Shown: in pieces, positions 6,703-32,599 of the stretch
Position numbering within the stretch: the first letter of the stretch is position 1
How the letters are laid out: every line of letters begins with the position of its first letter
From: Planctomycetota bacterium
GTDB lineage: Bacteria > Planctomycetota > UBA1135
Direction: 5' to 3'
Assembly: GCA_027020785.1 (NCBI GenBank)
Contig: JALUVI010000069.1
Coordinates: 1-50,972 of the forward strand
DNA: 50,972 bases
Notes under the pieces: generated by a model
What the model was told of the DNA's origin: nothing
Databases searched by the model: none
Seen by the model: the letters and a program-made list of their open reading frames with translations, nothing else
Made by a program: the position numbers and the translations under genes

Positions 6703-7188
6703 ATGCGTCGTTGGGCTCCCCTGACCGTCTCCCTCGCCCTCGCAACCGCCGCAGCCTGGTTCGGCATGCAGGCGTGCGGAAGCCTCGCCGGAGGCCCCGC
6801 CCCGCCCGTCACCGCCACGAGCTGGGCCCTGCCGGCCGACCTCGACCAGCCGCCGGACCCCAATCGGGGCTGGCGCGTCCTCGCCTTCTTCGCCCCCGAT
6901 TGAGGGACGTGCATCCACGAAGTCCCCGACCTCGTGCAGGTCCGGCGGCAATACCGGGATCGCGGCGTGGAAGTGATCGGGCTGACCCGCTCGAGCCGCG
7001 AAGAAGCCATGGCCTTCGCCCGGCGCCATGGCGCCGACTACCCCATCGTCGGCGCGGCCGACGAGGCCTTCCGCGACTACCACGTCTTCTTCGTTCCCGT
7101 GGTCTACCTGGTGAGCCCCTCCGGCATGGTCGAGGCCGACGGCCTGGAGGAGACCCGAACCGTGCTCGCGCGCGAGTTCGGTTCCTAG
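6703..7188 (+). CDS. TlpA/ResA-like periplasmic thiol-disulfide oxidoreductase with a UxxC active site (in-frame TGA 6901-6903 read as selenocysteine)
   Basis: Track ORFs 6661..6903 and 6934..7188 are in the same frame and separated only by TGA. The joined protein reads ...WRVLAFFAPD-U-GTC-IHEVPDLVQVRRQYRDRGVEVIGLT...YHVFFVPVVYLVSPSG. This aligns to the canonical FWATWCGPC...GV.V..V...VP.tflid redoxin pattern. An N-terminal signal peptide is present. Confidence 0.75.
6916..6942 (+). promoter_or_regulatory. candidate SECIS hairpin(s) downstream of UGA 6901
   Basis: Two mutually exclusive folds are possible. One is CACGA(6916-20)/UCGUG(6932-36) with an 11-nt loop carrying GU at +22/+23. The other is GACCU(6928-32)/AGGUC(6938-42) with loop CGUGC. 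Both are less canonical than the other two SECIS elements. Confidence 0.45.
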
Positions 7189-7855: not shown

Positions 7856-8431
7856 ATGGGGGCCATGAAGACGACCGCTCTCCTCTGCTCCCTCGCCCTC
7901 GCGCCGCTCCTCGGCGGATTCGGCTGCGCCATCGCCATCGGCAACGACGTCCAGGCCGACGGCGGCGGCCCCGACGTGGACCGCGCGGTGTGCGTCCTCC
8001 GCGGCACCGCGGGCAACGAGAGCGTCCACGGCGTCGTCACCTTCGAAGGACGCTCCGGCGGCGTGCTGGTGCGGGCCCGCGTCGAAGGGTTGACTCCGGG
8101 CGAACACGGCTTCCACGTCCACCAGTGGGGCGACGTGGACTGCCCCGACGGCAAGTGCACCGGCGGCCACTTCGACCCCTTCGGGGAACCGCACGGCGCC
8201 CCGGACGCGCCACTGCGCCACGTCGGCGACCTCGGCAACCTCGTCGCCGGGCCCGACGGCGTCGCCGACTACGAGCGCCTGGACTCCCGGCTCCGCCTGG
8301 AGGGCCCCAACTCCATCGTGGGACGCGCCGTGGTCGTCCACGCCGGCCCGGACGACTTCTCCAGCCAGCCTTCGGGTGCGGCGGGGCCGCGGGTCGCAGT
8401 CGGCGTCATCGGGATCGCGCCGCCCGAGTAG
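7856..8431 (+). CDS. sodC: Cu/Zn superoxide dismutase, lipoprotein form
   Basis: Motifs GFHVHQWGD, GGHFDP, HVGDLGN and VVVHAGPDD, plus lipobox LLGGFGC. An alternative start is at 7865 (MKTTALL). Confidence 0.9.
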   Translation: MGAMKTTALLCSLALAPLLGGFGCAIAIGNDVQADGGGPDVDRAVCVLRGTAGNESVHGVVTFEGRSGGVLVRARVEGLTPGEHGFHVHQWGDVDCPDGKCTGGHFDPFGEPHGAPDAPLRHVGDLGNLVAGPDGVADYERLDSRLRLEGPNSIVGRAVVVHAGPDDFSSQPSGAAGPRVAVGVIGIAPPE

Positions 8432-9512
8432 GGTCGAGGCGCAGCACGCGCCCGCCGGAGCCGGCCAGCCAGCCGGCTTCAGCGGTGTGGAAGCCGGACA
8501 CCGGACTCCCGTCCGAGTCGAGGAGCGGGCGCCACGTCCGCCCGCCGTCCTCGCTGACGTCGGTGCCGTTCGGGCCGGTGGCGAGGAAGACGCCGGCCTC
8601 GGCCCACCAGCACGCGCCGGAGCGGTAGCCGCCGGGCGGGACCTCGGCAGGGCTCCAGGTCCGCCCGCCGTCCTCGGTCCAGGCCGCGGTGGCGGCGCGG
8701 TCGTCGGGGCGACGCCAGTCGCCGCCCACCGCGACCCCGCGTCGCTCGTCGCGAAAGGCCAGGGCGAAGACGCCAGCCGAACCCTCTCCCCCGCCTCCGG
8801 ATCGGGTCAGCGGCGTCTCGGCGGCGGTCCAGGTGCGACCGCCGTCCTCGCTGCGCCAGACCCGGGCCACGGCGCCGCCGGTGCCGAGCCAGGCCAAGCC
8901 GCCGGGGGCGACGCGGAGCGACGAGCCGCTGGCGGCGAACACGTACTCGCCGGTCACCGGCGCAGGCAGCTCGTCGCCCGGGCCGACCCGGATCCAGGTC
9001 CGGCCGCCGTCCTCGGTCCGGGCCAGGAACAGCGCGCCGCCGACCGGGTCGCCGACCAGGAGGCCGTGCTGCCGGTCCCAGAAGGCGACGTCGTCCCAGA
9101 AGCCGTCGGGGTCTGCGTTGCGAGCCAGGGCGGTCCAGGTCCGGCCGGCGTCGGTGGTGCTCCACAGGCCGGAAGCGGCGCCAGGGCCGGCGGCGAGGGC
9201 GCAGGCGTTCCTCGCGTCCCAGGCCACGACGTCGCGGAAGTCGAGCTCGGCGCCGCCCGGAGGGGGCGGCAGCCGACGCCAGGTGCGCCCTCCGTCCTCC
9301 GTCAGGACGAGCGTACCGCCGCTGCCCGAGGCCCAGGCGACGACTGGACGGGGTACGGAGAGACCTCGAAAGGAGGCGCTGCCTCCCGGAGCGACGTCCG
9401 GCGTCGGCCGGGGGGCGCCATCCGGGAGGCGACAGGCGGCCACCGCGGCGCAGGAGAGGGCGAGGAGGCCGACCCCTCGCCGTCCCCGGCGCCGCCGGGC
9501 GGTGGGGATCAC
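8406..9512 (-). CDS. BNR/Ycf48-like beta-propeller lipoprotein
   Basis: Repeated (S/T)xDGGRTW motifs (at least 6 copies) in ORF 8406..9902. I prefer the GTG start at 9512 (VIPTARRRRGRRGVGLLALSCAAVAAC, signal plus lipobox), which overlaps the upstream stop as GTGA. Confidence 0.7.
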   Translation of the reverse strand: MIPTARRRRGRRGVGLLALSCAAVAACRLPDGAPRPTPDVAPGGSASFRGLSVPRPVVAWASGSGGTLVLTEDGGRTWRRLPPPPGGAELDFRDVVAWDARNACALAAGPGAASGLWSTTDAGRTWTALARNADPDGFWDDVAFWDRQHGLLVGDPVGGALFLARTEDGGRTWIRVGPGDELPAPVTGEYVFAASGSSLRVAPGGLAWLGTGGAVARVWRSEDGGRTWTAAETPLTRSGGGGEGSAGVFALAFRDERRGVAVGGDWRRPDDRAATAAWTEDGGRTWSPAEVPPGGYRSGACWWAEAGVFLATGPNGTDVSEDGGRTWRPLLDSDGSPVSGFHTAEAGWLAGSGGRVLRLDPTRAARSR

Positions 9513-9709
9513 TCGCCGAGCGAGGGGAAGTCCCGGTCCATGACGGTCTTGCGACCGTCCTTCTGGGCGTTCTGCATGGCCTGCTGGCACAGCTGCTTCA
9601 CGAGCTGCGAAAGGCGGGGGGCGACGTTGCCGGAGGTGTTCATGCCAGAGCTCTCCTTGATGTAGGTCTTCACCTTGCTCTGGACGACGAGGATGTCCTT
9701 GTCTGCCAT
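9509..9709 (-). CDS. bacterial histone-fold protein (singlet, 66 aa; DUF1931 / Bdellovibrio HBb-like)
   Basis: MADKDILVVQSKVKTYIKESSGMNTSGNVAPRLSQLVKQLCQQAMQNAQKDGRKTVMDRDFPSLGE. The helix-loop-long helix-loop layout and the DGRKTV(M/K)xxD motif are histone-fold hallmarks. An in-frame GTG at 9769 would add a 20-aa N-terminal tail. Confidence 0.7.
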   Translation of the reverse strand: MADKDILVVQSKVKTYIKESSGMNTSGNVAPRLSQLVKQLCQQAMQNAQKDGRKTVMDRDFPSLGE

Positions 9710-9790
9710 GGAATCGTGGTTCGGTGTGAACGCGCCGCTGGCGCGAGGGAGTGGAGGGAGGCGGCGCACCGCATCCCGAGAGACGGGCCG

Positions 9791-9796
9791 AGTCTA
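9791..9796 (-). promoter_or_regulatory. -10-like box TAGACT upstream of the histone-fold gene
   Basis: The reverse complement reads GCCGCTAGACTCGGCC. It implies a 5' UTR of about 75 nt to ATG 9709, or about 15 nt to GTG 9769. Confidence 0.35.
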
Positions 9797-9841
9797 GCGG
9801 CCCGAGGGGTCCGGAGAGGGCGGAACGGCCGGGAAACGGCC

Positions 9842-9871
9842 GGAGAGGCCCCGGAAGACCGGGACCTCTCC
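9842..9871 (-). terminator. GC-rich hairpin downstream of the DUF4382-like gene
   Basis: GGAGAGGCCCCGG-AAGA-CCGGGACCTCTCC forms 12 bp with one mismatch and a 4-nt loop. It lies 36 nt after the stop at 9907. The U-tract is weak. Confidence 0.5.
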
Positions 9872-9906
9872 TCGCATGCGTGCGCAAGCACTTGTGGACC
9901 AAGGAC

Positions 9907-11610
9907 TTACTTCACGCGAACCTCGAGCTCCCAGACGATCGGGTCGCCGCCGGAAGCGTCTCCGATGCCCTTGGCGCGCTCGACTTCGAGCTCCTCGCCC
10001 GGACCGAGGCCGGAAAGGGCGCTCTGCAGCCCGGAGAGCGTCGTGGTCGAACCCTCCAGCTCCAGGGCCGCGCCCGAGGCGACCGCGAAGGTCTCGGTCC
10101 CGGCGATGGCGACCCCCCAGGGATCGTCCACGTCGCTGACCTGGATCGTGATCGTTCCGGCTCCCGGGGACACGGCGACCAGGGTGCCCTGCACGCGTCC
10201 GGGCTTCACCTTGAACTTGGTGGCCTGGACGGCGGCCGCATTCGGCGGTCCGGAGAGCTGTCCGTGGGCCTCGGCCTTCATCCCGGCGAGGACGTCGTCC
10301 TTCGCCAGGGACGGACGCCCCTCCACGTCCAGGAAGACGTTGGAGGTCCCTGTCAGGTCCACCGTGACCGGAGCGGTGACCTGGCCCGAGGTGACCGCAG
10401 GCTCGTCCGAGTCCAGGGTCAGTTCGAGGGAAGCGGGCAGTCCGGAGTCGTCGGTGATGGTGCCTTCGAACTCGGCTCCCTCGTCGTCGAACTCGATCGT
10501 GGTGCAGAAGAAGGGCTCACTGCCGCTGAAGGCGGGGAATCCGCACTTGACCTTCGCCCCCGGGATCAACTGGGCCACGGTTGCCGAAGCACCGTCCTCG
10601 CCCTCGAACCGAGTGGAGCCGTCCCAGGCGACGGTGATCACGGCGGGGTTGCCGAGCGCGGCCATGGTCCCATGGACGGTCGAAGAGCCGCGGTCCACGC
10701 GGGTCCACAGCAGCTCGAAGGTCTCGGCGCCGGAATCCACCGACAGCACCTGACCGCGCAACCGGTAGGGCTCGCTGGAGACGTCCTCGATCTCGACCCG
10801 GTCGGCCTGGAAGTTGCCGGCCCGGCCGAGGTAGCCGTGGACCTCGACCTCGGCGCCGATCCGCAGCGCGGCGAAGAAGGCGGTGGTCCCGGCGAGGGCC
10901 CGACCATCGTCGAGCAGGACGTCGGAGTCGTCCACCACGACGTGCACCTCGCCGAAACCAGAGCCGGAGTCGTCCATCACCATGCACTCGAAGGTGTTGG
11001 AGGTCGGGTCCATCTCGGTGACCCGGCCATGGAACTCGTCGAAGCCCGAGTCGTCGGGGAACTCGTGCTCGCAACGGATCTTCAGGGCGAAGCGCTTGCC
11101 CCCGGGATTGGTGGTGTCGTCCGAGAGGGTCTGGTCGAGCGGGACGTCCACCAGGATGCGCTCGAAACCGGAACCGACGACCAGCGGCGATTCGCCGAGG
11201 TCGGAGAACAGGCAGTCGTCCTGACTGCGGTCCACGACCACGGGGACCACGCCGCCGGCCTTGGCGACGACCCGGACCGAAGCCGGATCGATGCGCAACC
11301 GGACCCCGGTGTAGGTGCCGTCGGGGACGTCCGCCATCCGCAACAGCGAGCGGGTGGACGCCAGCGAGATGAAGTCGAAGGTCCGCGGCACCTGCAGCAG
11401 GTTGCCGGTGGCCGAGCCGTCGGGGCGCAGCAGACGCAGGTCCACGACGTCGGCCATGACCGCGGCCAGGCCGTCGGTCGGGGCGTCCGAGATCAGGAAC
11501 CCGACGTCGTCGCCGGAGCCGGAACTGGAGTCGTCTCCGCCGCCGCCGCAGGAAGCCAGGAGGAAGGCGGCGCCGAGGGCGCCGAGGAGGAGGAAGGAGC
11601 GGATTCTCAT
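9907..11610 (-). CDS. lipoprotein with an N-terminal DUF4382-like domain
   Basis: The start at 11610 gives MRIRSFLLLGALGAAFLLASCGG (lipobox). FLISDAP...DLRLL resembles DUF4382 (from memory). The remainder is acidic and rich in beta strands. Confidence 0.65.
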   Translation of the reverse strand: MRIRSFLLLGALGAAFLLASCGGGGDDSSSGSGDDVGFLISDAPTDGLAAVMADVVDLRLLRPDGSATGNLLQVPRTFDFISLASTRSLLRMADVPDGTYTGVRLRIDPASVRVVAKAGGVVPVVVDRSQDDCLFSDLGESPLVVGSGFERILVDVPLDQTLSDDTTNPGGKRFALKIRCEHEFPDDSGFDEFHGRVTEMDPTSNTFECMVMDDSGSGFGEVHVVVDDSDVLLDDGRALAGTTAFFAALRIGAEVEVHGYLGRAGNFQADRVEIEDVSSEPYRLRGQVLSVDSGAETFELLWTRVDRGSSTVHGTMAALGNPAVITVAWDGSTRFEGEDGASATVAQLIPGAKVKCGFPAFSGSEPFFCTTIEFDDEGAEFEGTITDDSGLPASLELTLDSDEPAVTSGQVTAPVTVDLTGTSNVFLDVEGRPSLAKDDVLAGMKAEAHGQLSGPPNAAAVQATKFKVKPGRVQGTLVAVSPGAGTITIQVSDVDDPWGVAIAGTETFAVASGAALELEGSTTTLSGLQSALSGLGPGEELEVERAKGIGDASGGDPIVWELEVRVK

Positions 11611-12652: not shown

Positions 12653-12704
12653 TTCCGTTCATGAACCCAGAGGGGAATCGTTTCCGCAGGCCGGGAGCTC
12701 GCGC

Positions 12705-12710
12705 TAGACT
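12705..12710 (+). promoter_or_regulatory. -10-like box TAGACT, 7 nt upstream of GTG 12718
   Basis: GCGCTAGACTGGTCGGCGTG. Confidence 0.4.
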
Positions 12711-12717
12711 GGTCGGC

Positions 12718-13389
12718 GTGACCCGACGCGCTCTCCTCGTCGCCCTGGCGCCGCTGCTGGCGGCCTGCGCCGCCCCCTCCATGGACGTGACCGTCGAGGC
12801 CTGGGGCGACGGCGATGCGGTCCGGGCCGCTGGGGCCTACGCACGCGACCCCCAGGTCATCGTGACGGACCCGAAACACCGCGCCGTCCTGGCCCTGGTC
12901 GAGGAATCGCTCCAGGAGGTCGGCCTCGAGCGGGCCGAAGCGGCGGCGCCCGACGTGCTGCTCCTGTCGGCCTCGGTGCGCACCGAGGAGAGCGACCTCT
13001 ACGTCCCGCCCAGCGTCGAGACCCATCCGGTGTGGTACCCCGGGCGCACCCGCCGCTACCGCATCGTCGAGGACGGCACGGTGCGCTGGGTCACGGTCCA
13101 CGAACCCGGCGACTGGGTCTCCCATACCTGGACCCGCCCCGGCTACGTGGTCCACCGCTACCGCCACGAGCTCGAGGTCGCCCTCGTGAAGAGCGACTCG
13201 ACCCCGTGGCGGGAGACGGTGTGGCGGGGACGCGCGGAAGGCCTGTCGCCGAACCCCGACCCGCTCCACTTCGCCCGGCTGGTCCTGCCGCTGCTGATGG
13301 AGGGCTTCCCCGACCGTCAGGGCGCGCGCCGCCTCACCCTGACCCTGGAAGCGCCGCCCGCGGCCGCCGCCACCGCGGCCGCCCCATGA
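12718..13389 (+). CDS. hypothetical lipoprotein
   Basis: VTRRALLVALAPLLAACAAP (lipobox) within ORF 11674..13389. An alternative ATG is at 12661. Its stop overlaps the next start as ATGA. Confidence 0.55.
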   Translation: MTRRALLVALAPLLAACAAPSMDVTVEAWGDGDAVRAAGAYARDPQVIVTDPKHRAVLALVEESLQEVGLERAEAAAPDVLLLSASVRTEESDLYVPPSVETHPVWYPGRTRRYRIVEDGTVRWVTVHEPGDWVSHTWTRPGYVVHRYRHELEVALVKSDSTPWRETVWRGRAEGLSPNPDPLHFARLVLPLLMEGFPDRQGARRLTLTLEAPPAAAATAAAP

Positions 13390-28595: not shown

Positions 28596-29801
28596 GTGCC
28601 CGTCACCCTCCTCCCCTCGCTCGTCCTCCTCCTGACCTGCGCCCCGCCGGCCCAGGAACCCGCCGCCGCAGTCGAAACCGTCGCCGGCGACTTCGGCCTC
28701 GGCCTGCGTCCCGTGGGCCTGCGCTTCGACCAACCGTTGTGGGTGGTCTCGGCGCCCGACGACGCCGAGGTCCTCTTCGTGGTGGAGAAGCCGGGGCGGG
28801 TACGTGCCGTGGTCCGCGGCGAGCTCCAGCGGGAGCCGGTGCTCGACCTGCGCGATCGCATCTCGGACCGTTCCGAGCGCGGGCTCCTGTGCCTGGTGTT
28901 CCATCCGAACTGGGGACGGGACGGCGAGGACTCGGTCTTCCTGCACTGGAACGACCGCAGCGGGCACACCCACGTCACCCGAAACCACCTGCCGCGCCCC
29001 GAACCGGGTGCCCCCTGGCGCGCGACCGACGAGGAGGAACTCCTGCTGTTCGTGGAGCAGCCCTTCCCCAACCACGATGGAGGCCAGCTCGCCTTCGGCC
29101 CGGACGGCCATCTCTACATCGGCCTCGGCGACGGTGGCGCAGCCAACGACCCGCTCGCCGCCGGCCAGGACCTCACCACCCACCTGGCGAAGATCCTACG
29201 CATCGACGTGGACGGCGGCAGCCCCTACGCCATCCCTGCCGACAACCCCTTCGTGGACGTGGAAGGCGCCCGACCGGAGATCTGGGCCTACGGCCTGCGC
29301 AATCCCTGGCGCTTCTCGTTCGACCCGGAGACGGGCGACCTCTGGATCGGCGACGTCGGCCAGAACCTGTGGGAGGAAGTGGACTTCCTGCCCGCCGACC
29401 ACGGGGGCGGCGCCAATTTCGGCTGGCGGCGCTGGGAGGGCAGCCACCCCTTCGACCCCGACCTGGAACTCGGGCCGACCCCACACGTGCCGCCGATCTT
29501 CGAGTACCCCCACGGGGCTCCGCACTACGACTGCTCGGTGACGGGAGGGTTCGTCTACCGCGGTGACGCCATCCCGGAGCTGCGCGGCTGGTACCTGTGG
29601 GCCGACTACTGCAGCGGACGGGTCGGGGCCCTGAAACAGGAGGGCGGGCAGCTGGTCGCTTCGCTGGACCTGACCCGCGACCTGGCGCCGAACACGAAGC
29701 TGCCAGCGCTGTGCTCCTTTGGACGCGACGCCGACGGCGAGCTCTACCTGGTCAGCCTCCAGGGGCCGGTCTGGAAGATCGTCCCGGAGGAGGCGGACTG
29801 A
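28596..29801 (+). CDS. PQQ-dependent sugar dehydrogenase (soluble aldose/sorbosone dehydrogenase, YliI-like)
   Basis: ERGLLCLVFHP, NHDGGQLAFGPDGHLYIGLGDGG, YGLRNPWRFSFD, WIGDVGQNLWEEV and GGFVYRG are characteristic beta-propeller motifs. Confidence 0.88.
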   Translation: MPVTLLPSLVLLLTCAPPAQEPAAAVETVAGDFGLGLRPVGLRFDQPLWVVSAPDDAEVLFVVEKPGRVRAVVRGELQREPVLDLRDRISDRSERGLLCLVFHPNWGRDGEDSVFLHWNDRSGHTHVTRNHLPRPEPGAPWRATDEEELLLFVEQPFPNHDGGQLAFGPDGHLYIGLGDGGAANDPLAAGQDLTTHLAKILRIDVDGGSPYAIPADNPFVDVEGARPEIWAYGLRNPWRFSFDPETGDLWIGDVGQNLWEEVDFLPADHGGGANFGWRRWEGSHPFDPDLELGPTPHVPPIFEYPHGAPHYDCSVTGGFVYRGDAIPELRGWYLWADYCSGRVGALKQEGGQLVASLDLTRDLAPNTKLPALCSFGRDADGELYLVSLQGPVWKIVPEEAD

Positions 29802-29881
29802 CCCCGCTGCGGCGGAACTCCACGCGGACGTCTCGGGGCGCTGGGAGGGAGGCTGGGCGCCCCCCCCCGGCGGGCGGGGAA

Positions 29882-29959
29882 TGGTCGGGGCGAGAAGATT
29901 CGAACTTCCGACCTCTGCAACCCCATTGCAGCGCGCTATCCAGACTGCGCCACGCCCCG
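29882..29959 (-). tRNA. tRNA-Pro (anticodon GGG), CCA encoded
   Basis: The reverse complement is CGGGGCGTGGCGCAGTCTGGATAGCGCGCTGCAATGGGGTTGCAGAGGTCGGAAGTTCGAATCTTCTCGCCCCGACCA. I folded the cloverleaf by hand: 7-bp acceptor stem, anticodon loop A-U-GGG-G-U, T loop TTCGAAT. Confidence 0.9.
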
Positions 29960-29970
29960 ACCGGTGGGGA

Positions 29971-29976
29971 ATTGTA
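29971..29976 (-). promoter_or_regulatory. -10-like box TACAAT upstream of tRNA-Pro
   Basis: The reverse complement reads GCGTACAATTCCCCACCGG, followed by the tRNA 5' end 11 nt downstream. Confidence 0.45.
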
Positions 29977-30114
29977 CGCGCCGGAGGGCCTGGCTGGCAA
30001 GAGGGGCCAGGCGACGCGAGGCGCGGGGGAAAGCGGCTCAAGCCGGACCGCGGTGATCCGCAAAGGGGGTGGCAGCGTCGTTGGAAGAAGGAGCGCTGAC
30101 TGCCATGATGGGTG

Positions 30115-30148
30115 CCGGCGGCCGCAAGGCCGCCGGTTTTCTTCTTCT
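30115..30148 (+). terminator. intrinsic terminator with no annotated gene upstream (orphan)
   Basis: CCGGCGGCC-GCAA-GGCCGCCGG (9 bp perfect, GNRA loop) followed by TTTTCTTCTTCT. A T-run like this is rare in this GC-rich window. Confidence 0.6.
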
Positions 30149-30271
30149 GGGCCGCGGAGCGCGTCTCCCACCCCGCCGGCCCCGATGGTTCGCCGTTCGA
30201 AAGCTCAAGGAGGCCGAGGCACGGCCGTGAAGGAAGGGCGGTCGAGCCCCCGGCTCGATCCGAACTCCGAC

Positions 30272-32599
30272 ATGAAGACCCTCCTCCTCACGACGACCTT
30301 GACACTGGTGAGTCTGGCCGCAGCGCCCCCCGTGGCCGCGGCATCCCCTTCCGCCCTCGCCCCGCAGCAGGAGCTCCGCCAGGTCTCCGGCGAGCGCGTG
30401 ACCAGGACCCGGCGCGCCGTGCCCAAGGGCGGGGCCGTCGGCGCCACGCACGGCGACACTGCGGCGCGCAAGAGCAAGAAGAAGGGCGCGAAGTCCTCGA
30501 GCCTGGCCGTCCTGGCCAGGCGCATGGGCATCGATACCAAGCGCCTGCGCTCCGAAGTCGTCCGGCTCCGGCGGACGGCGAACCCGCGGATCGCCGTGAG
30601 TCGCTTCATGGCCCGGATGGGCGACCTCCTACCCGAAACGACGGCAGCCCGCAACGCCGTCTTCCGCCGTCTTGCGACGATGGCGGGCAAGGGCAAGCGA
30701 CGGGCGCAGCTGATGCAGGCGTTCCAACGCACCGACCGTTCTGCGTCGGCCTCCGGAGGGGGCGCCTCCGCAGGCAACCGACGCGGCGCCGGCGGCGGAA
30801 CCTCCGAGGTCAACGTCGGCCCCGGTGAGTTCGCCTCGAACCCGGCCGGCGGCACCGCCCAACCGATGACCACGCGCGGCTTCGGCATCGTCGGCTGGAC
30901 GGCCACCGACGGGTTGGCCGACCAACTCCAGGAGATCGGGTTCCAGGACTCGCTCTACCGACGGACGTTCTTCCTCCCCGACCCGCAGCGCGGCAGCCTC
31001 ATCGGGCGTGACTTCGCGCTCGCCTCGAGCCGCGGCTATCGCACCTGGCTGACCTGCGTCGGTACGCCGATGGACCTGTCGCCCCACCCGGAGGAGACCG
31101 GGACCGAGTACGGGACCGGGCTCGAGGCCTACGCCCGCTACGTCCCCACCGACGGCGTGGCCTGGGCCGACCGGGTCCTCGACTTCATCGACACCATCGA
31201 GGCCACGCCCGGCGCGCGGGTGGACCACGTCGAGATCTGGAACGAGGTCGAGCGGGTCGAATGGTTCTCGTCCTCGCTCGAGGAGTTCCTCGCCTTCTAC
31301 GACGCGGCGGCGACCCGCATCAAGACGGTGCGCCCCGACATCGAGGTCGGCGGTCCCGGCCTGGCCGGCTGGAGCAGTACCATGGGTGGCGACGAATCGG
31401 TGCTCTTCGCCTTGGTGCGCCACGTCGCCGAGAGCGGTGCGCCGCTGGACTTCGTGTCGTGGCACCACTACACCGAGGCCAACGAGCTGCTGGCCAGTCG
31501 GGTGGTGGAGAAGCTGCGCAAGCTGCAGGTCTCGCTGGGCCTGCCGCGCTTCGAGACCGTGGTCAGCGAATGGAACCTGTACCCCAGCGCACAGGGCGAA
31601 CACGGCTACCAGTTCGACGGCCCCTGGGCGGCGGCGGCCTACGCCGGCTTCTCCACCACCGCAGGGGAAATGGGGCTGGACGCCAACCTGTTCTTCCTCG
31701 ACGTGGACGAAGCGGACGACGGCGGTCTGACCGACCTCGCGGGGGTCGGCCTCGGCGCCATCACTCACCACGGCATCCGCAAGCCGGTGGCCCGGTTGAT
31801 GGAGATCCTCCTCGGCATGGCGCGGGAGAGCGTGGTGCCGGTCGAGGCGCCCCTCCAGGAGTACTCGGTGCGCATCGCCGCCACGCGGCTCGGCACCAGG
31901 GTCCGCTACGTCATCAGCAACGCGCCGGTCAGCGGCCACTGGATGTTCGTGACGAAGTCCAGGGAGGCCGGCATGGACCCGGGCTGGTTGTACCCGATCT
32001 GGCTCGCCGCAGGCGGTCCCCAGGCGACGGTGACCACGCTCATGGCCCAGGGGCTGACCGAGCAGCAGGCCGAGGACACGCTGGCCTTCATCCCGGCGGT
32101 GCTCGAGGCCGACGTGGAGACGGCCCAGCCCACCGAGGTCGTCCTCACCCTGACCGGCACCGCCCCCGTCCAGGTCACCGAGGTGCGGCGCTTCACCCAG
32201 ACCGTCAACGCACCGGCGAACCACCTGGACACGCTGACTCCGCAGCTCCAGCTCGCCGAGGACATGGCCCGCGAGGCGACGGCCATCGAGGTCGCGGACT
32301 TCCTGACCACGGAAGGCTACCCGACCACCTCGGACGAGCTGCTCGGCATCGATCAGGAATTCAAGGACTGGGCCGACGGTCGGGGCATCCCCTTCGGCAT
32401 CCAGGTCCGGGCCATCGCGATGATGAACCAGGGGCTGTTCGACAACCGCATCGTCCAGGGCGCCTGGCTGAACACCCTCCCCGAGACGACCGTCCTGGTC
32501 GAGGACGCCCAGAGCGCCGGCGTGGTGCTCGACGGCCGCAAGCTCCGCCTGACCATGGAGCCCGACAGCGTGGTCGTCGTGGACGTCGAGATCTACTGA
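30272..32599 (+). CDS. secreted clan GH-A glycoside hydrolase (GH39-like) with a basic low-complexity N-terminal region
   Basis: Signal peptide MKTLLLTTTLTLVSLAAAPPVAAA. Candidate acid/base motif VEIWNEVE and nucleophile motif VVSEWN. This is the real part of ORF 29597..32599. Confidence 0.6.
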   Translation: MKTLLLTTTLTLVSLAAAPPVAAASPSALAPQQELRQVSGERVTRTRRAVPKGGAVGATHGDTAARKSKKKGAKSSSLAVLARRMGIDTKRLRSEVVRLRRTANPRIAVSRFMARMGDLLPETTAARNAVFRRLATMAGKGKRRAQLMQAFQRTDRSASASGGGASAGNRRGAGGGTSEVNVGPGEFASNPAGGTAQPMTTRGFGIVGWTATDGLADQLQEIGFQDSLYRRTFFLPDPQRGSLIGRDFALASSRGYRTWLTCVGTPMDLSPHPEETGTEYGTGLEAYARYVPTDGVAWADRVLDFIDTIEATPGARVDHVEIWNEVERVEWFSSSLEEFLAFYDAAATRIKTVRPDIEVGGPGLAGWSSTMGGDESVLFALVRHVAESGAPLDFVSWHHYTEANELLASRVVEKLRKLQVSLGLPRFETVVSEWNLYPSAQGEHGYQFDGPWAAAAYAGFSTTAGEMGLDANLFFLDVDEADDGGLTDLAGVGLGAITHHGIRKPVARLMEILLGMARESVVPVEAPLQEYSVRIAATRLGTRVRYVISNAPVSGHWMFVTKSREAGMDPGWLYPIWLAAGGPQATVTTLMAQGLTEQQAEDTLAFIPAVLEADVETAQPTEVVLTLTGTAPVQVTEVRRFTQTVNAPANHLDTLTPQLQLAEDMAREATAIEVADFLTTEGYPTTSDELLGIDQEFKDWADGRGIPFGIQVRAIAMMNQGLFDNRIVQGAWLNTLPETTVLVEDAQSAGVVLDGRKLRLTMEPDSVVVVDVEIY

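What the first reader, a model, noticed from the sequence alone, without database searches (positions are those of the whole stretch)
9509..9769. Bacterial histone-fold protein resembling the Bdellovibrio-type singlet histone
The 66-aa product is MADKDILVVQSKVKTYIKESSGMNTSGNVAPRLSQLVKQLCQQAMQNAQKDGRKTVMDRDF... Its spacing fits a short helix, loop, long central helix, then the DGRKTV.xxD loop typical of histone folds. From memory it is very similar to the Bdellovibrio bacteriovorus histone Bd0055/HBb (...VLVVTSKVKKLIKE...MNTS...QLC...AKADGRKTVMARD). That protein is a major nucleoid protein with an unusual DNA-binding mode.

The gene is visibly less GC-rich than its surroundings. An in-frame GTG at 9769 would add a 20-residue Pro/Arg-containing N-terminal tail, which would be unusual for prokaryotic histones.
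Basis: partly seen in the sequence, partly recalled or inferred. Interest (0 to 1): 0.7.

Follow-up and report, generated by a model that had tools for sequence, protein, structure and literature searches.

The report
HBb-type bacterial histone in a planctomycete
This is a real 66-residue histone-fold gene of the recently described Bdellovibrio HBb ("bacterial dimer") family, sitting as a native chromosomal gene in an uncultured high-GC planctomycete; it adds one member to a family already found in hundreds of bacterial species.

Summary
Window 9509-9709 (-) encodes a 66-aa protein whose best solved-structure matches are Bdellovibrio HBb/Bd0055 (E 1.7e-12, about 50% identity). Its AlphaFold model superposes on HBb at TM 0.75-0.85.

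It keeps 9 of 10 HBb DNA-contact residues, the RD clamp, the short alpha2 and the one-turn alpha3. It lacks the residues that make archaeal or Leptospira histones tetramerise. The most likely function is an abundant, sequence-nonspecific, dimeric nucleoid protein that bends DNA.

- The GC dip (61.7%) equals what the amino-acid composition predicts under host codon usage, and GC3 is 0.925, so the gene is native.
- The 20-codon GTG extension is not conserved and does not look coding, so there is no N-terminal tail.

The host is a Planctomycetota MAG (LepA about 80% identical to Planctomycetota MAGs). Gene order around the histone is conserved in divergent relatives. The family occurs in at least 556 GTDB species and was already reported in Planctomycetota, so this is a new member of a known kind.

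Side findings:
- a conserved TAGACT -10-like box upstream of the gene
- a stop/start overlap with a downstream lipoprotein gene
- an invariant alpha2 cysteine
- tandem HBb-like doublets in metagenomes

The parts
9509..9709 (-). Histone CDS: 66 aa, ATG start, TGA stop. HBb-type ('bacterial dimer', alpha3-truncated) histone fold with alpha1 about residues 3-21, alpha2 about 29-50, L2 DGRKTV, and a one-turn alpha3 at 58-60.
9710..9769 (-). In-frame stretch between GTG 9769 and ATG 9709. It is most likely part of the 5' leader, not a coding N-terminal tail.
   Evidence: GC1/2/3 = 0.75/0.65/0.75 against GC3 0.925 in the CDS. Homologs start at M-S/A-D-x-E/D directly before (V/I)LVV, and the rare extensions are unrelated to each other. 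Independent gene calls on two other assemblies give 66 aa. The leader fold is not significant, z=-0.99.
9791..9796 (-). TAGACT, a -10-like promoter hexamer. Its 3' end lies 82 nt upstream of the ATG and 22 nt upstream of the GTG.
   Evidence: It is the only TAGACT on this strand in the 51-kb window. The same hexamer lies 43-81 nt upstream of the histone ATG in 8 further distinct high-GC loci whose flanks do not align. TAGACT is the -10 element of M. tuberculosis rrnAP3 (PMC4176334). Promoter function here is inferred.
9842..9871 (-). 13-bp GC-rich hairpin (GGAGAGGTCCCGG-TCTT-CCGGGGCCTCTCC) 36 nt after the stop of the upstream gene. It looks like a terminator but has no U-tract, and it separates the histone from the upstream transcription unit.
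   Evidence: 86-nt region -51.4 kcal/mol, z=-5.9; coordinates checked. The consensus terminator scan did not report it because it lacks a T-run.
8406..9512 (-). Downstream gene for a 368-aa BNR/Asp-box beta-propeller (Ycf48-like) with a lipoprotein-type signal (RRRRGRRGVGLLALSCAAVAAC). Its GTG start overlaps the histone stop (GTGA), so it is probably co-transcribed and translationally coupled.
   Evidence: The same gene follows the histone in L008 (TTG start 4 nt after the stop) and in L023.
9907..11610 (-). Upstream gene for a 567-aa DUF4382/DUF5666 lipoprotein. It is a conserved synteny partner, not functionally linked by any evidence here.

Best explanation
Window 9509-9709 (-) encodes a 7.3-kDa, pI 9.3 member of the HBb (Bd0055) 'bacterial dimer' group of alpha3-truncated histones, resident in the chromosome of an uncultured Planctomycetota bacterium. 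By homology, two chains pair head-to-tail through their antiparallel alpha2 helices (core L33, V37, L40, V13, F61). Each paired L1-L2 loop (N24, S26 / K54, T55, R59, held by the D51-R53-D60 clamp) and the alpha1 N-terminus (S11, K12, K14, K18) contact the DNA backbone at minor grooves without sequence specificity, bending DNA as HBb does (about 84 degrees over 36 bp). Because the dimer-dimer interface residues are absent, the protein should stop at the dimer and act like HU/IHF-type benders, not wrap DNA in nucleosome-like particles. It is probably transcribed from its own promoter (-10-like TAGACT) as the first cistron of a short operon and is probably highly expressed. Shown here: homology, fold, residue conservation, native codon usage, synteny, start codon. 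Inferred: dimer state, bending, abundance, promoter, operon.
For: - Sequence: HBb structures 8FVX/8CMP are the best PDB hits at E=1.7e-12 over 57 ungapped residues. The tetrameric HLp scores only 1e-6 and archaeal histones 0.6 or worse.
- Structure: AlphaFold2 mean pLDDT is 86.8, with helices 3-21 and 29-50 and a single turn at 58-60. The Foldseek top 5 are all HBb (TM 0.75-0.85, rmsd 1.5-2.2 A), followed by HLp and HTkC.
- Residues: 9 of 10 HBb DNA-contact residues from Hu et al. 2024 are kept. So are the RD clamp with D49, and the dimer core is kept (three positions identical, two conservatively replaced). The S-K motif and short alpha2 named by Hocher et al. are present.
- No tetramer determinants: K50 sits at the HBb A48 / HMfB His49 site, and N47/D51 sit at HLp R49/N53.
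- Native gene: observed GC 0.617 equals the 0.617 expected from its amino acids under window codon usage. GC3 is 0.925. The preferred-codon fraction of 0.77 is the highest of 13 genes compared.
- Vertical inheritance: the order AP-endonuclease, DUF4382, histone, BNR, SOD is kept in two Planctomycetota MAGs whose neighbour proteins are only 47-68% identical.
- Chromosomal setting: ArgRS, LepA, signal peptidase and ETF lie in the same window. There are no phage or plasmid relatives.
- Family invariants L7, V9, S11, K12, K14, N24, T25, C41, G52-R53-K54-T55, M57-D58-R59-D60 are all present.
Against: - No experiment on this protein or any planctomycete ortholog exists in the literature searched.
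- The oligomeric state was not modelled, because the tool predicts monomers only.
- The in-vivo binding mode of HBb itself is disputed: end-on filaments in Hocher 2023 against bending in Hu 2024.
- One HBb DNA-contact residue differs (T8 becomes Q10).
- Expression level is inferred only from codon bias and a conserved promoter-like box.
- The consensus promoter scan found nothing, and no -35 element is conserved.
Confidence: 0.8

Rival explanations
1. Same family, different mechanism: the dimers bind DNA end-on through only one L1-L2 face and coat straight DNA as a dense nucleohistone filament (the Hocher et al. 2023 model for Bd0055), with no bending.
For: The Bd0055-DNA co-crystal and in-vitro data in PMC10627809 support this mode for the closest characterised homolog. 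The residues involved are the same conserved L2 and alpha1 residues kept here.
Against: Later crystal forms, TPM, circularisation assays and MD for HBb favour bending (PMC11317129). Sequence alone cannot discriminate between the two.
Confidence: 0.12
2. It is a face-to-face (HLp/HTkC-like) tetrameric histone that wraps about 60 bp of DNA.
For: HLp (9QT0) and HTkC (9F2C) are the next-best sequence and fold matches. FtF histones also occur in Planctomycetota.
Against: The conserved tetramer residues R49 and N53 of HLp are N47 and D51 here. The match to HBb is six orders of magnitude better than to HLp. The invariant Cys41 of the dimer group is present, where HLp has Ile.
Confidence: 0.03
3. The protein is made from GTG 9769 as an 86-aa histone with a Pro/Arg-containing N-terminal tail, like a eukaryotic histone tail.
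For: The GTG is in frame and lies about 15 nt downstream of the predicted transcription start, so it would be present on the mRNA. A few database homologs are annotated with N-terminal extensions.
Against: The extension has GC3 0.75 and GC2 0.65, unlike coding sequence in this genome. The extensions in other homologs share no similarity and look like over-called starts. Nearly all relatives start M-S/A-D-x-E. Gene calls on two independent assemblies give 66 aa.
Confidence: 0.03
4. The gene is a recent horizontal acquisition or assembly contaminant, as the local GC drop might suggest.
For: GC is 0.62-0.63 against 0.73 for the window. The family's distribution across phyla is patchy, and HGT has been proposed for it.
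Against: Observed GC equals the composition-expected GC (0.617 in both cases). GC3 and codon preference match or exceed the neighbours. The same gene is found in the same context on two further assemblies. Synteny is conserved in divergent relatives. There are no phage or plasmid homologs and no mobile-element genes adjacent.
Confidence: 0.03
5. The histone fold is used for something other than chromosome organisation, for example as a protein-protein module or a specific regulator of the downstream lipoprotein gene.
For: Schwab et al. caution that not all prokaryotic histone-fold proteins need be global organisers. Tight coupling to a BNR lipoprotein gene is conserved in three genomes.
Against: All DNA-backbone-contacting residues but one are conserved and invariant across the family. 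The downstream partner differs in other lineages, for example a sulfatase-like gene in L007 and none in L011, L042 and L067. So the coupling is not a family trait.
Confidence: 0.05

Closest known systems
HBb / Bd0055 of Bdellovibrio bacteriovorus HD100 (PDB 8FVX, 8CMP, 9EZZ, 9F0E); 'bacterial dimer' histones of Schwab et al. 2024
   Same: Single histone fold of 64-66 aa, aligned without gaps over 57 residues at about 50% identity. It has the same short alpha2, one-turn alpha3, DGRKTVMxRD loop with RD clamp, S-K motif, alpha1 lysines, N-T-S L1 loop and mid-alpha2 Cys. It has no tetramerisation residues.
   Different: The host is a 73% GC planctomycete, not a predatory Bdellovibrio. HBb T8 (a DNA contact) is Gln here, and HBb K13 is Thr. 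The C-terminal tail is PSLGE, not VIDHL. Here the gene overlaps a downstream lipoprotein gene and has an SD-less C/A-rich leader.
HLp of Leptospira perolatii (PDB 9QT0-2) and archaeal HTkC (9F2C); face-to-face (FtF) histones
   Same: Same alpha3-truncated histone superfamily, with similar length, RD clamp and short alpha2.
   Different: FtF histones form tori of two dimers through R49/S52/N53 and wrap about 60 bp. Those residues are N47/K50/D51 here, and identity is only 36-39%.
Archaeal nucleosomal histones HMfA/HMfB/HTkA (Pfam PF00808, NCBIfam NF043032)
   Same: Histone fold, L2 RKT motif and RD clamp; DNA is contacted at minor grooves by L1-L2 and alpha1.
   Different: Profile scores are below the curated cut-offs (17 against 21.4 bits; 18.6 against 50). 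Fold matches reach only TM about 0.5. Here alpha3 is a single helical turn (residues 58-60 in the model), against about 10 residues in nucleosomal histones, and alpha2 is shorter by about a turn; there is no His49-type four-helix-bundle interface, so no hypernucleosome is expected.
HU/IHF family
   Same: Expected role: a small, basic, abundant dimer that bends DNA without (HU) sequence specificity. Hu et al. make this functional comparison for HBb.
   Different: Unrelated fold. No HU/IHF homolog is present in this window. Whether the genome has one is unknown.

Membership tests
Bacterial dimer histones (HBb/Bd0055 group, alpha3-truncated family) | Sequence clusters with HBb. This category was defined by sequence clustering (Schwab 2024). 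| tested here: met
   phmmer E=1.7e-12 to 8FVX/8CMP, against 1e-6 to HLp and 0.6 or worse to nucleosomal histones; 48-53% identity in structural alignment
Bacterial dimer histones (HBb/Bd0055 group, alpha3-truncated family) | Histone fold (alpha1-L1-alpha2-L2-alpha3) with no other domain | tested here: met
   66 aa in total. AF2 pLDDT 86.8, helices 3-21 and 29-50, turn 58-60. All 50 listed PDB fold matches are histone-fold proteins (histones, NF-Y/CBF, MHF, CENP), headed by HBb.
Bacterial dimer histones (HBb/Bd0055 group, alpha3-truncated family) | alpha3 truncated to about 3-4 residues | tested here: met
   The model has a 3-residue helical turn at 58-60, followed by Pro62.
Bacterial dimer histones (HBb/Bd0055 group, alpha3-truncated family) | alpha2 about one turn (4-5 residues) shorter than in nucleosomal histones | tested here: met
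   alpha2 is 22 residues in the model. Alignment to HBb through alpha2 has no gaps. The feature is defined.
Bacterial dimer histones (HBb/Bd0055 group, alpha3-truncated family) | RKTxxxD motif / RD clamp, augmented by D49 in HBb | tested here: met
   D51-G-R53-K54-T55-V-M-D-R59-D60, invariant in 74 relatives
Bacterial dimer histones (HBb/Bd0055 group, alpha3-truncated family) | S-K motif and conserved lysines on alpha1; HBb DNA-contact set N22, R57, S9, T53, T8, S24, K10, K12, K52, K16 | tested here: met
   9 of 10 identical (N24, R59, S11, T55, S26, K12, K14, K54, K18); T8 is replaced by Q10
Bacterial dimer histones (HBb/Bd0055 group, alpha3-truncated family) | Absence of dimer-dimer interface residues (FtF R48/N52; archaeal His49) | tested here: met
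   N47 and D51 sit at HLp R49/N53. K50 sits at the HBb A48 / HMfB H49 site. N47 and S63 sit at the other two sites whose mutation made Bd0055 tetramerise.
Bacterial dimer histones (HBb/Bd0055 group, alpha3-truncated family) | Dimer in solution; binds DNA nonspecifically and bends it; abundant nucleoid protein | not testable with these tools
   Needs SEC-MALS, TPM or circularisation assays, proteomics and imaging. Only codon bias hints at high expression.
Face-to-face (FtF) histones (HLp, HTkC) | Conserved R49, N53 and R55 hydrogen-bond network forming the tetramer | tested here: not met
   Only R55 (the clamp arginine, R53 here) is present. R49 is replaced by N47 and N53 by D51.
Archaeal/eukaryotic nucleosomal histone fold (Pfam PF00808 CBFD_NFYB_HMF; NCBIfam NF043032) | Score at or above the curated cut-off | tested here: not met
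   17.0 bits against 21.4, matching only the alpha2-C/L2 region 33-60; 18.6 bits against 50
DUF1931 pseudodimeric histones (PF09123) | Score at or above the cut-off; two fused folds | tested here: not met
   12.9 bits against 21.8; single fold of 66 aa

The most novel reading that the evidence does not exclude
In this deep-branching, high-GC Planctomycetota lineage (relatives of Engelhardtia), the HBb-type histone is a vertically inherited, highly expressed principal chromatin protein. It would be driven by a conserved TAGACT promoter and co-expressed with an exported beta-propeller lipoprotein. It could underlie the condensed nucleoids for which planctomycetes are known, possibly with the invariant alpha2 cysteine giving redox-sensitive behaviour.
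Probability: 0.2. Interest if true: 0.55.

Novelty: new member of a known kind. Interest (0 to 1): 0.3.

Why it matters
Bacterial histones were recognised as real chromatin proteins only in 2023-2024, and only Bdellovibrio HBb and Leptospira HLp have been studied experimentally. This locus shows three things about the family in Planctomycetota.

- **Native gene:** the HBb type is a stable chromosomal gene with host codon usage and conserved synteny, not a transient import.
- **Start codon:** the locus gives a clean start-codon assignment for this lineage.
- **Promoter:** it provides a candidate conserved promoter element.

It also illustrates that curated profile libraries (Pfam, NCBIfam) miss this family at their thresholds, so such genes are usually annotated "hypothetical". 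It does not change the current picture of bacterial histones. The phylum and the family were already linked in the literature.

Tried and rejected
- **Promoter/terminator scan:** the consensus scan of 9200-10100 found nothing. The TAGACT box and the GC hairpin emerged only from comparing loci and from folding.
- **Rfam:** the scan of the window found only tRNA-Pro, so no known RNA element lies near the gene.
- **5' leader fold:** folding 9700-9785 gave z=-0.99, so there is no evidence of a structured leader.
- **-35 element:** none is conserved when nine loci are anchored on TAGACT.
- **Mobile elements:** phage and plasmid collections have no relatives at E<=1e-3.
- **TAGACT across the family:** I asked whether the box travels with the gene across phyla. 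It does not. It is confined to high-GC Planctomycetota-type loci, and most other lineages have ordinary GGAGG Shine-Dalgarno leaders.
- **SD-less leader:** I considered whether it was special to the histone. Only 3 of 14 called genes nearby have an SD, so it is a property of the genome.
- **Cultured carriers:** I did not determine whether a cultured planctomycete carries an ortholog.
Full report
**1. Observation.** On the minus strand an ORF runs from GTG 9769 to the TGA at 9511-9509, with an ATG at 9709. The coding frame has GC1/GC2/GC3 = 0.57/0.36/0.925, the signature of genuine genes in this 72.9% GC window. The protein is in the public protein collection as a 66-aa call. It is found on two further assemblies, ENA ERZ27262676 and Logan SRR8439019, in the same gene context.

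**2. What it is.** phmmer against all PDB chains gives the Bdellovibrio bacteriovorus histone HBb/Bd0055 (8FVX, 8CMP) as best hit, at E=1.7e-12 over 57 residues without a gap. The tetrameric Leptospira histone HLp (9QT0, 1e-6) comes next, then archaeal HTkC (9F2C, 8e-4) and HmvA (8BDK). Classical archaeal histones score only 0.6-0.9.

An AlphaFold2 model built on 74 relatives is confident (mean pLDDT 86.8). It shows helices 3-21 and 29-50 and a single helical turn at 58-60. Foldseek against the PDB returns five HBb structures first (TM 0.75-0.85, rmsd 1.5-2.2 A, 48-53% identity), then HLp and HTkC. Nucleosomal histones follow at TM about 0.5.

Curated profiles miss the protein. Pfam CBFD_NFYB_HMF scores 17.0 bits against a cut-off of 21.4, and DUF1931 scores 12.9 against 21.8. 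NCBIfam archaea_histone scores 18.6 against 50. Nearly all of the 120 listed relatives carry no precomputed Pfam domain. Where named, they are called "hypothetical protein", JGI "histone H3/H4" or NCBI "histone-like protein".

**3. Family hallmarks.** The literature defines the "bacterial dimer" group of alpha3-truncated histones by these features (PMC10627809, PMC11390915, PMC11317129):
- sequence clustering with HBb
- an alpha3 of 3-4 residues
- an alpha2 about one turn shorter than in nucleosomal histones
- the RKTxxxD motif / RD clamp
- an S-K motif and lysines on alpha1
- absence of dimer-dimer interface residues

With a constant offset of +2, the HBb DNA-contact set maps as follows. N22, R57, S9, T53, T8, S24, K10, K12, K52 and K16 become N24, R59, S11, T55, Q10, S26, K12, K14, K54 and K18, so 9 of 10 are identical. 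The clamp D49-R51-D58 maps to D51-R53-D60. The dimer core L31, I35, L38, V11, I59 maps to L33, V37, L40, V13, F61.

The three sites whose mutation (S45F, A48H, I61L) made Bd0055 tetramerise and wrap DNA are N47, K50 and S63 here. The HLp tetramer residues R49 and N53 correspond to N47 and D51. Every sequence-testable defining feature of the bacterial-dimer group is met, and the FtF-defining feature is not. The protein is basic: net charge +3, pI 9.3, 7.3 kDa, against +2 and pI 8.85 for HBb.

**4. Start codon.** In an alignment of 26 relatives, nearly all begin M-(S/A)-(D/E)-x-(E/D) immediately before the (V/I)L(V/I)V motif. This matches the ATG at 9709. The few longer database entries have unrelated extensions. 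The 20 codons between GTG 9769 and the ATG have GC1/2/3 = 0.75/0.65/0.75, unlike coding sequence in this genome. I conclude that the 66-aa form is the product and that there is no N-terminal tail.

No Shine-Dalgarno precedes either candidate start. That is normal here, because only 3 of 14 nearby called genes have one.

**5. The GC dip.** The CDS is 61.7% GC, against 73% for the window and 75-80% for its flanks. Given its amino acids (rich in K, Q, N, M, S, D) and the codon usage of 12 other window genes, the expected GC is 61.7%, identical to the observed value. GC3 (0.925) matches the neighbours (0.89-0.93). The fraction of window-preferred codons (0.77) is the highest of the 13 genes compared, which fits high expression. 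So the dip reflects protein composition, not foreign origin.

**6. Host and context.** The window is ordinary chromosome. It carries ArgRS, LepA, signal peptidase, ETF-alpha, sulfatase, glycoside hydrolase and one tRNA-Pro. LepA is 99% identical to a protein on an unnamed 11.8-kb contig and about 80% identical to many proteins labelled "MAG: Planctomycetota bacterium". It is 66% identical to the cultured planctomycete Engelhardtia mirabilis.

The histone lies between a DUF4382/DUF5666 lipoprotein gene upstream and a BNR/Asp-box beta-propeller lipoprotein gene downstream. Cu/Zn-SOD and a nitroreductase lie beyond, and an AP-endonuclease-2-family gene lies on the other side. The order AP-endonuclease, DUF4382, histone, BNR, SOD recurs in two Planctomycetota MAG contigs (L008, L023). 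Their neighbour proteins are only 47-68% identical to the window's. This indicates long vertical residence. A marine planctomycete ortholog (L003/L004) also keeps an AP-endonuclease fragment next to the histone. No second histone and no HU homolog is present in the window. No relatives occur in the phage or plasmid collections.

**7. Expression signals (inferred).** A 13-bp GC-rich hairpin (9842-9871) follows the upstream gene's stop. The 86-nt region folds at -51.4 kcal/mol, z=-5.9. Between it and the histone lies TAGACT (9791-9796), the only copy of that hexamer on this strand in 51 kb.

The same hexamer lies 43-81 nt upstream of the histone ATG in eight further distinct high-GC loci: L007, L008, L011, L018, L023, L042, L067 and L039. 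Their flanking sequence is otherwise unalignable. The hexamer is absent upstream of the histone in Bdellovibrionota, anammox and other lineages. From base composition I estimate about 0.015 chance occurrences per 250-nt upstream region. TAGACT is the -10 element of the M. tuberculosis rrnAP3 promoter (PMC4176334). I therefore read it as a housekeeping-type -10 box. No conserved -35 was found, and the generic scan reported nothing.

The histone stop overlaps the GTG start of the BNR lipoprotein gene (GTGA, 9509-9512). That gene's signal peptide is encoded immediately after the overlap. In L008 the ortholog starts at a TTG 4 nt after the stop. In L023 the signal-peptide frame begins at a CTG overlapping the stop. 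In L007 a different, sulfatase-like lipoprotein gene has the same GTGA overlap. The histone is therefore probably the first cistron of a short operon in this lineage. The varying partner argues against a specific functional link.

**8. How common it is.** The word-indexed search returned 910 clusters at 90% identity, the best at 72% identity. The exhaustive search of 1.84 billion 50%-identity representatives found 541 at E<=1e-3 and 145 at E<=1e-10. The labels include Planctomycetota (with the anammox genera Brocadia, Kuenenia and Scalindua), Bdellovibrionota, Latescibacterota, Krumholzibacteriia, Eisenbacteria, Gemmatimonadota, Nitrospirota and Cloacimonadota. Published surveys already list Planctomycetota among the phyla with bacterial-dimer histones and note their phylogenetic persistence there. 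I found no experimental paper on a planctomycete member.

**9. Mechanism and confidence.** Membership in the HBb group is secure, at about 0.95. The mechanism is inferred by homology at about 0.8. That mechanism is a head-to-tail dimer contacting the DNA backbone at minor grooves through paired L1-L2 loops and alpha1, bending DNA without sequence specificity and not forming tetramers. The main uncertainty is inherited from HBb itself, for which an end-on filament mode has also been proposed. The other rivals are each disfavoured by direct tests above: FtF tetramer, tailed 86-aa isoform, recent HGT and a non-DNA role.

**10. Verdict.** It is one more member of a family described in 2023-2024 and now visible in hundreds of species, including this phylum. 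Novelty: new member of a known kind. Interest is about 0.3. The value added here is fourfold: a firm start codon, proof that the gene is native despite the GC dip, conserved synteny, and a candidate lineage-specific promoter box.

Noticed in passing
window 9791-9796 (-); also L007, L008, L011, L018, L023, L042, L067, L039 upstream of their histone genes: An identical TAGACT hexamer, usually within C-TAGACT-C, lies 43-81 nt upstream of the histone ATG in nine distinct high-GC (mostly Planctomycetota) loci whose surrounding sequence does not align. It is absent from other phyla's histone loci. It matches the -10 of M. tuberculosis rrnAP3. This is a candidate strong housekeeping -10 element for this lineage.
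   Followed up: yes
window 9509-9512 (-); L008, L023, L007 junctions: The histone stop codon overlaps (GTGA) the start of a downstream exported lipoprotein gene (BNR/Ycf48-like). The juxtaposition is kept in the syntenic loci: a TTG 4 nt after the stop in L008 and a CTGA overlap in L023. It recurs with an unrelated sulfatase-like lipoprotein in L007. This suggests that downstream genes ride on the histone transcript.
   Followed up: partly
window 9587-9589 (-), residue C41 of the histone: A cysteine in the middle of alpha2 (HBb C39) is invariant in 74 of 74 relatives, while the tetrameric HLp has Ile there. A term search for 'cysteine', 'C39' and 'disulfide' in the two HBb papers found no discussion of it. 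It could serve packing or redox sensing at the alpha2-alpha2 crossing. I could not measure the C-C' distance.
   Followed up: partly
proteins P0241, P0242, P0244, P0246, P0248 (126-149 aa) and P0243 (274 aa): Metagenomic proteins carry two complete HBb-like histone folds in tandem, each 45-60% identical to the window protein and joined by a short linker. P0243 has a ZZ-type zinc-finger N-terminus followed by two folds. A term search of the main text of the Schwab 2024 survey did not turn up such HBb-type doublets.
   Followed up: partly
window 9509-9709 (-) and the family as a whole: Pfam and NCBIfam profiles score this family below their curated cut-offs, and almost all relatives have no precomputed Pfam domain. 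Automatic annotation therefore labels them hypothetical, so a refutation test based on profile hits alone would give a false negative.
   Followed up: yes
window 6934-7188 (+) and 6703-6903 (+): The 84-aa ORF matches only the C-terminal half of the AhpC/TSA profile (positions 53-122 of 124), so it looks like a truncated or disrupted redoxin gene. The adjacent 66-aa called ORF has no family match and is not a histone paralog.
   Followed up: partly
window 5.6-15 kb (14 called genes on L001): Shine-Dalgarno motifs are rare in this genome, present in 3 of 14 genes. The window clade (window, L008, L023) has C/A-rich leaders before the histone ATG, whereas most other lineages have GGAGG.
   Followed up: partly
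L072 (JABDBI010000003.1, 101-kb contig): A contig labelled 'Methanobacteriota archaeon' MAG encodes a 62%-identical bacterial-dimer-type histone, although this group is described as exclusive to bacteria. The cause could be mis-binning or inter-domain transfer. Sister MAGs from the same study are labelled Gammaproteobacteria (L056, L078).
   Followed up: no
window 12704-12710 (+): The only other CTAGACT in the window lies just inside the called 5' end of the DUF4136 gene (12661-13389). It may mark a promoter and a shorter true CDS.
   Followed up: no
window 29882-29959 (-): tRNA-Pro(GGG) lies on the opposite strand within the stop-to-stop ORF 29567-32599 that contains a GH39 domain. The real start of that gene must therefore be downstream of the tRNA.
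   Followed up: no
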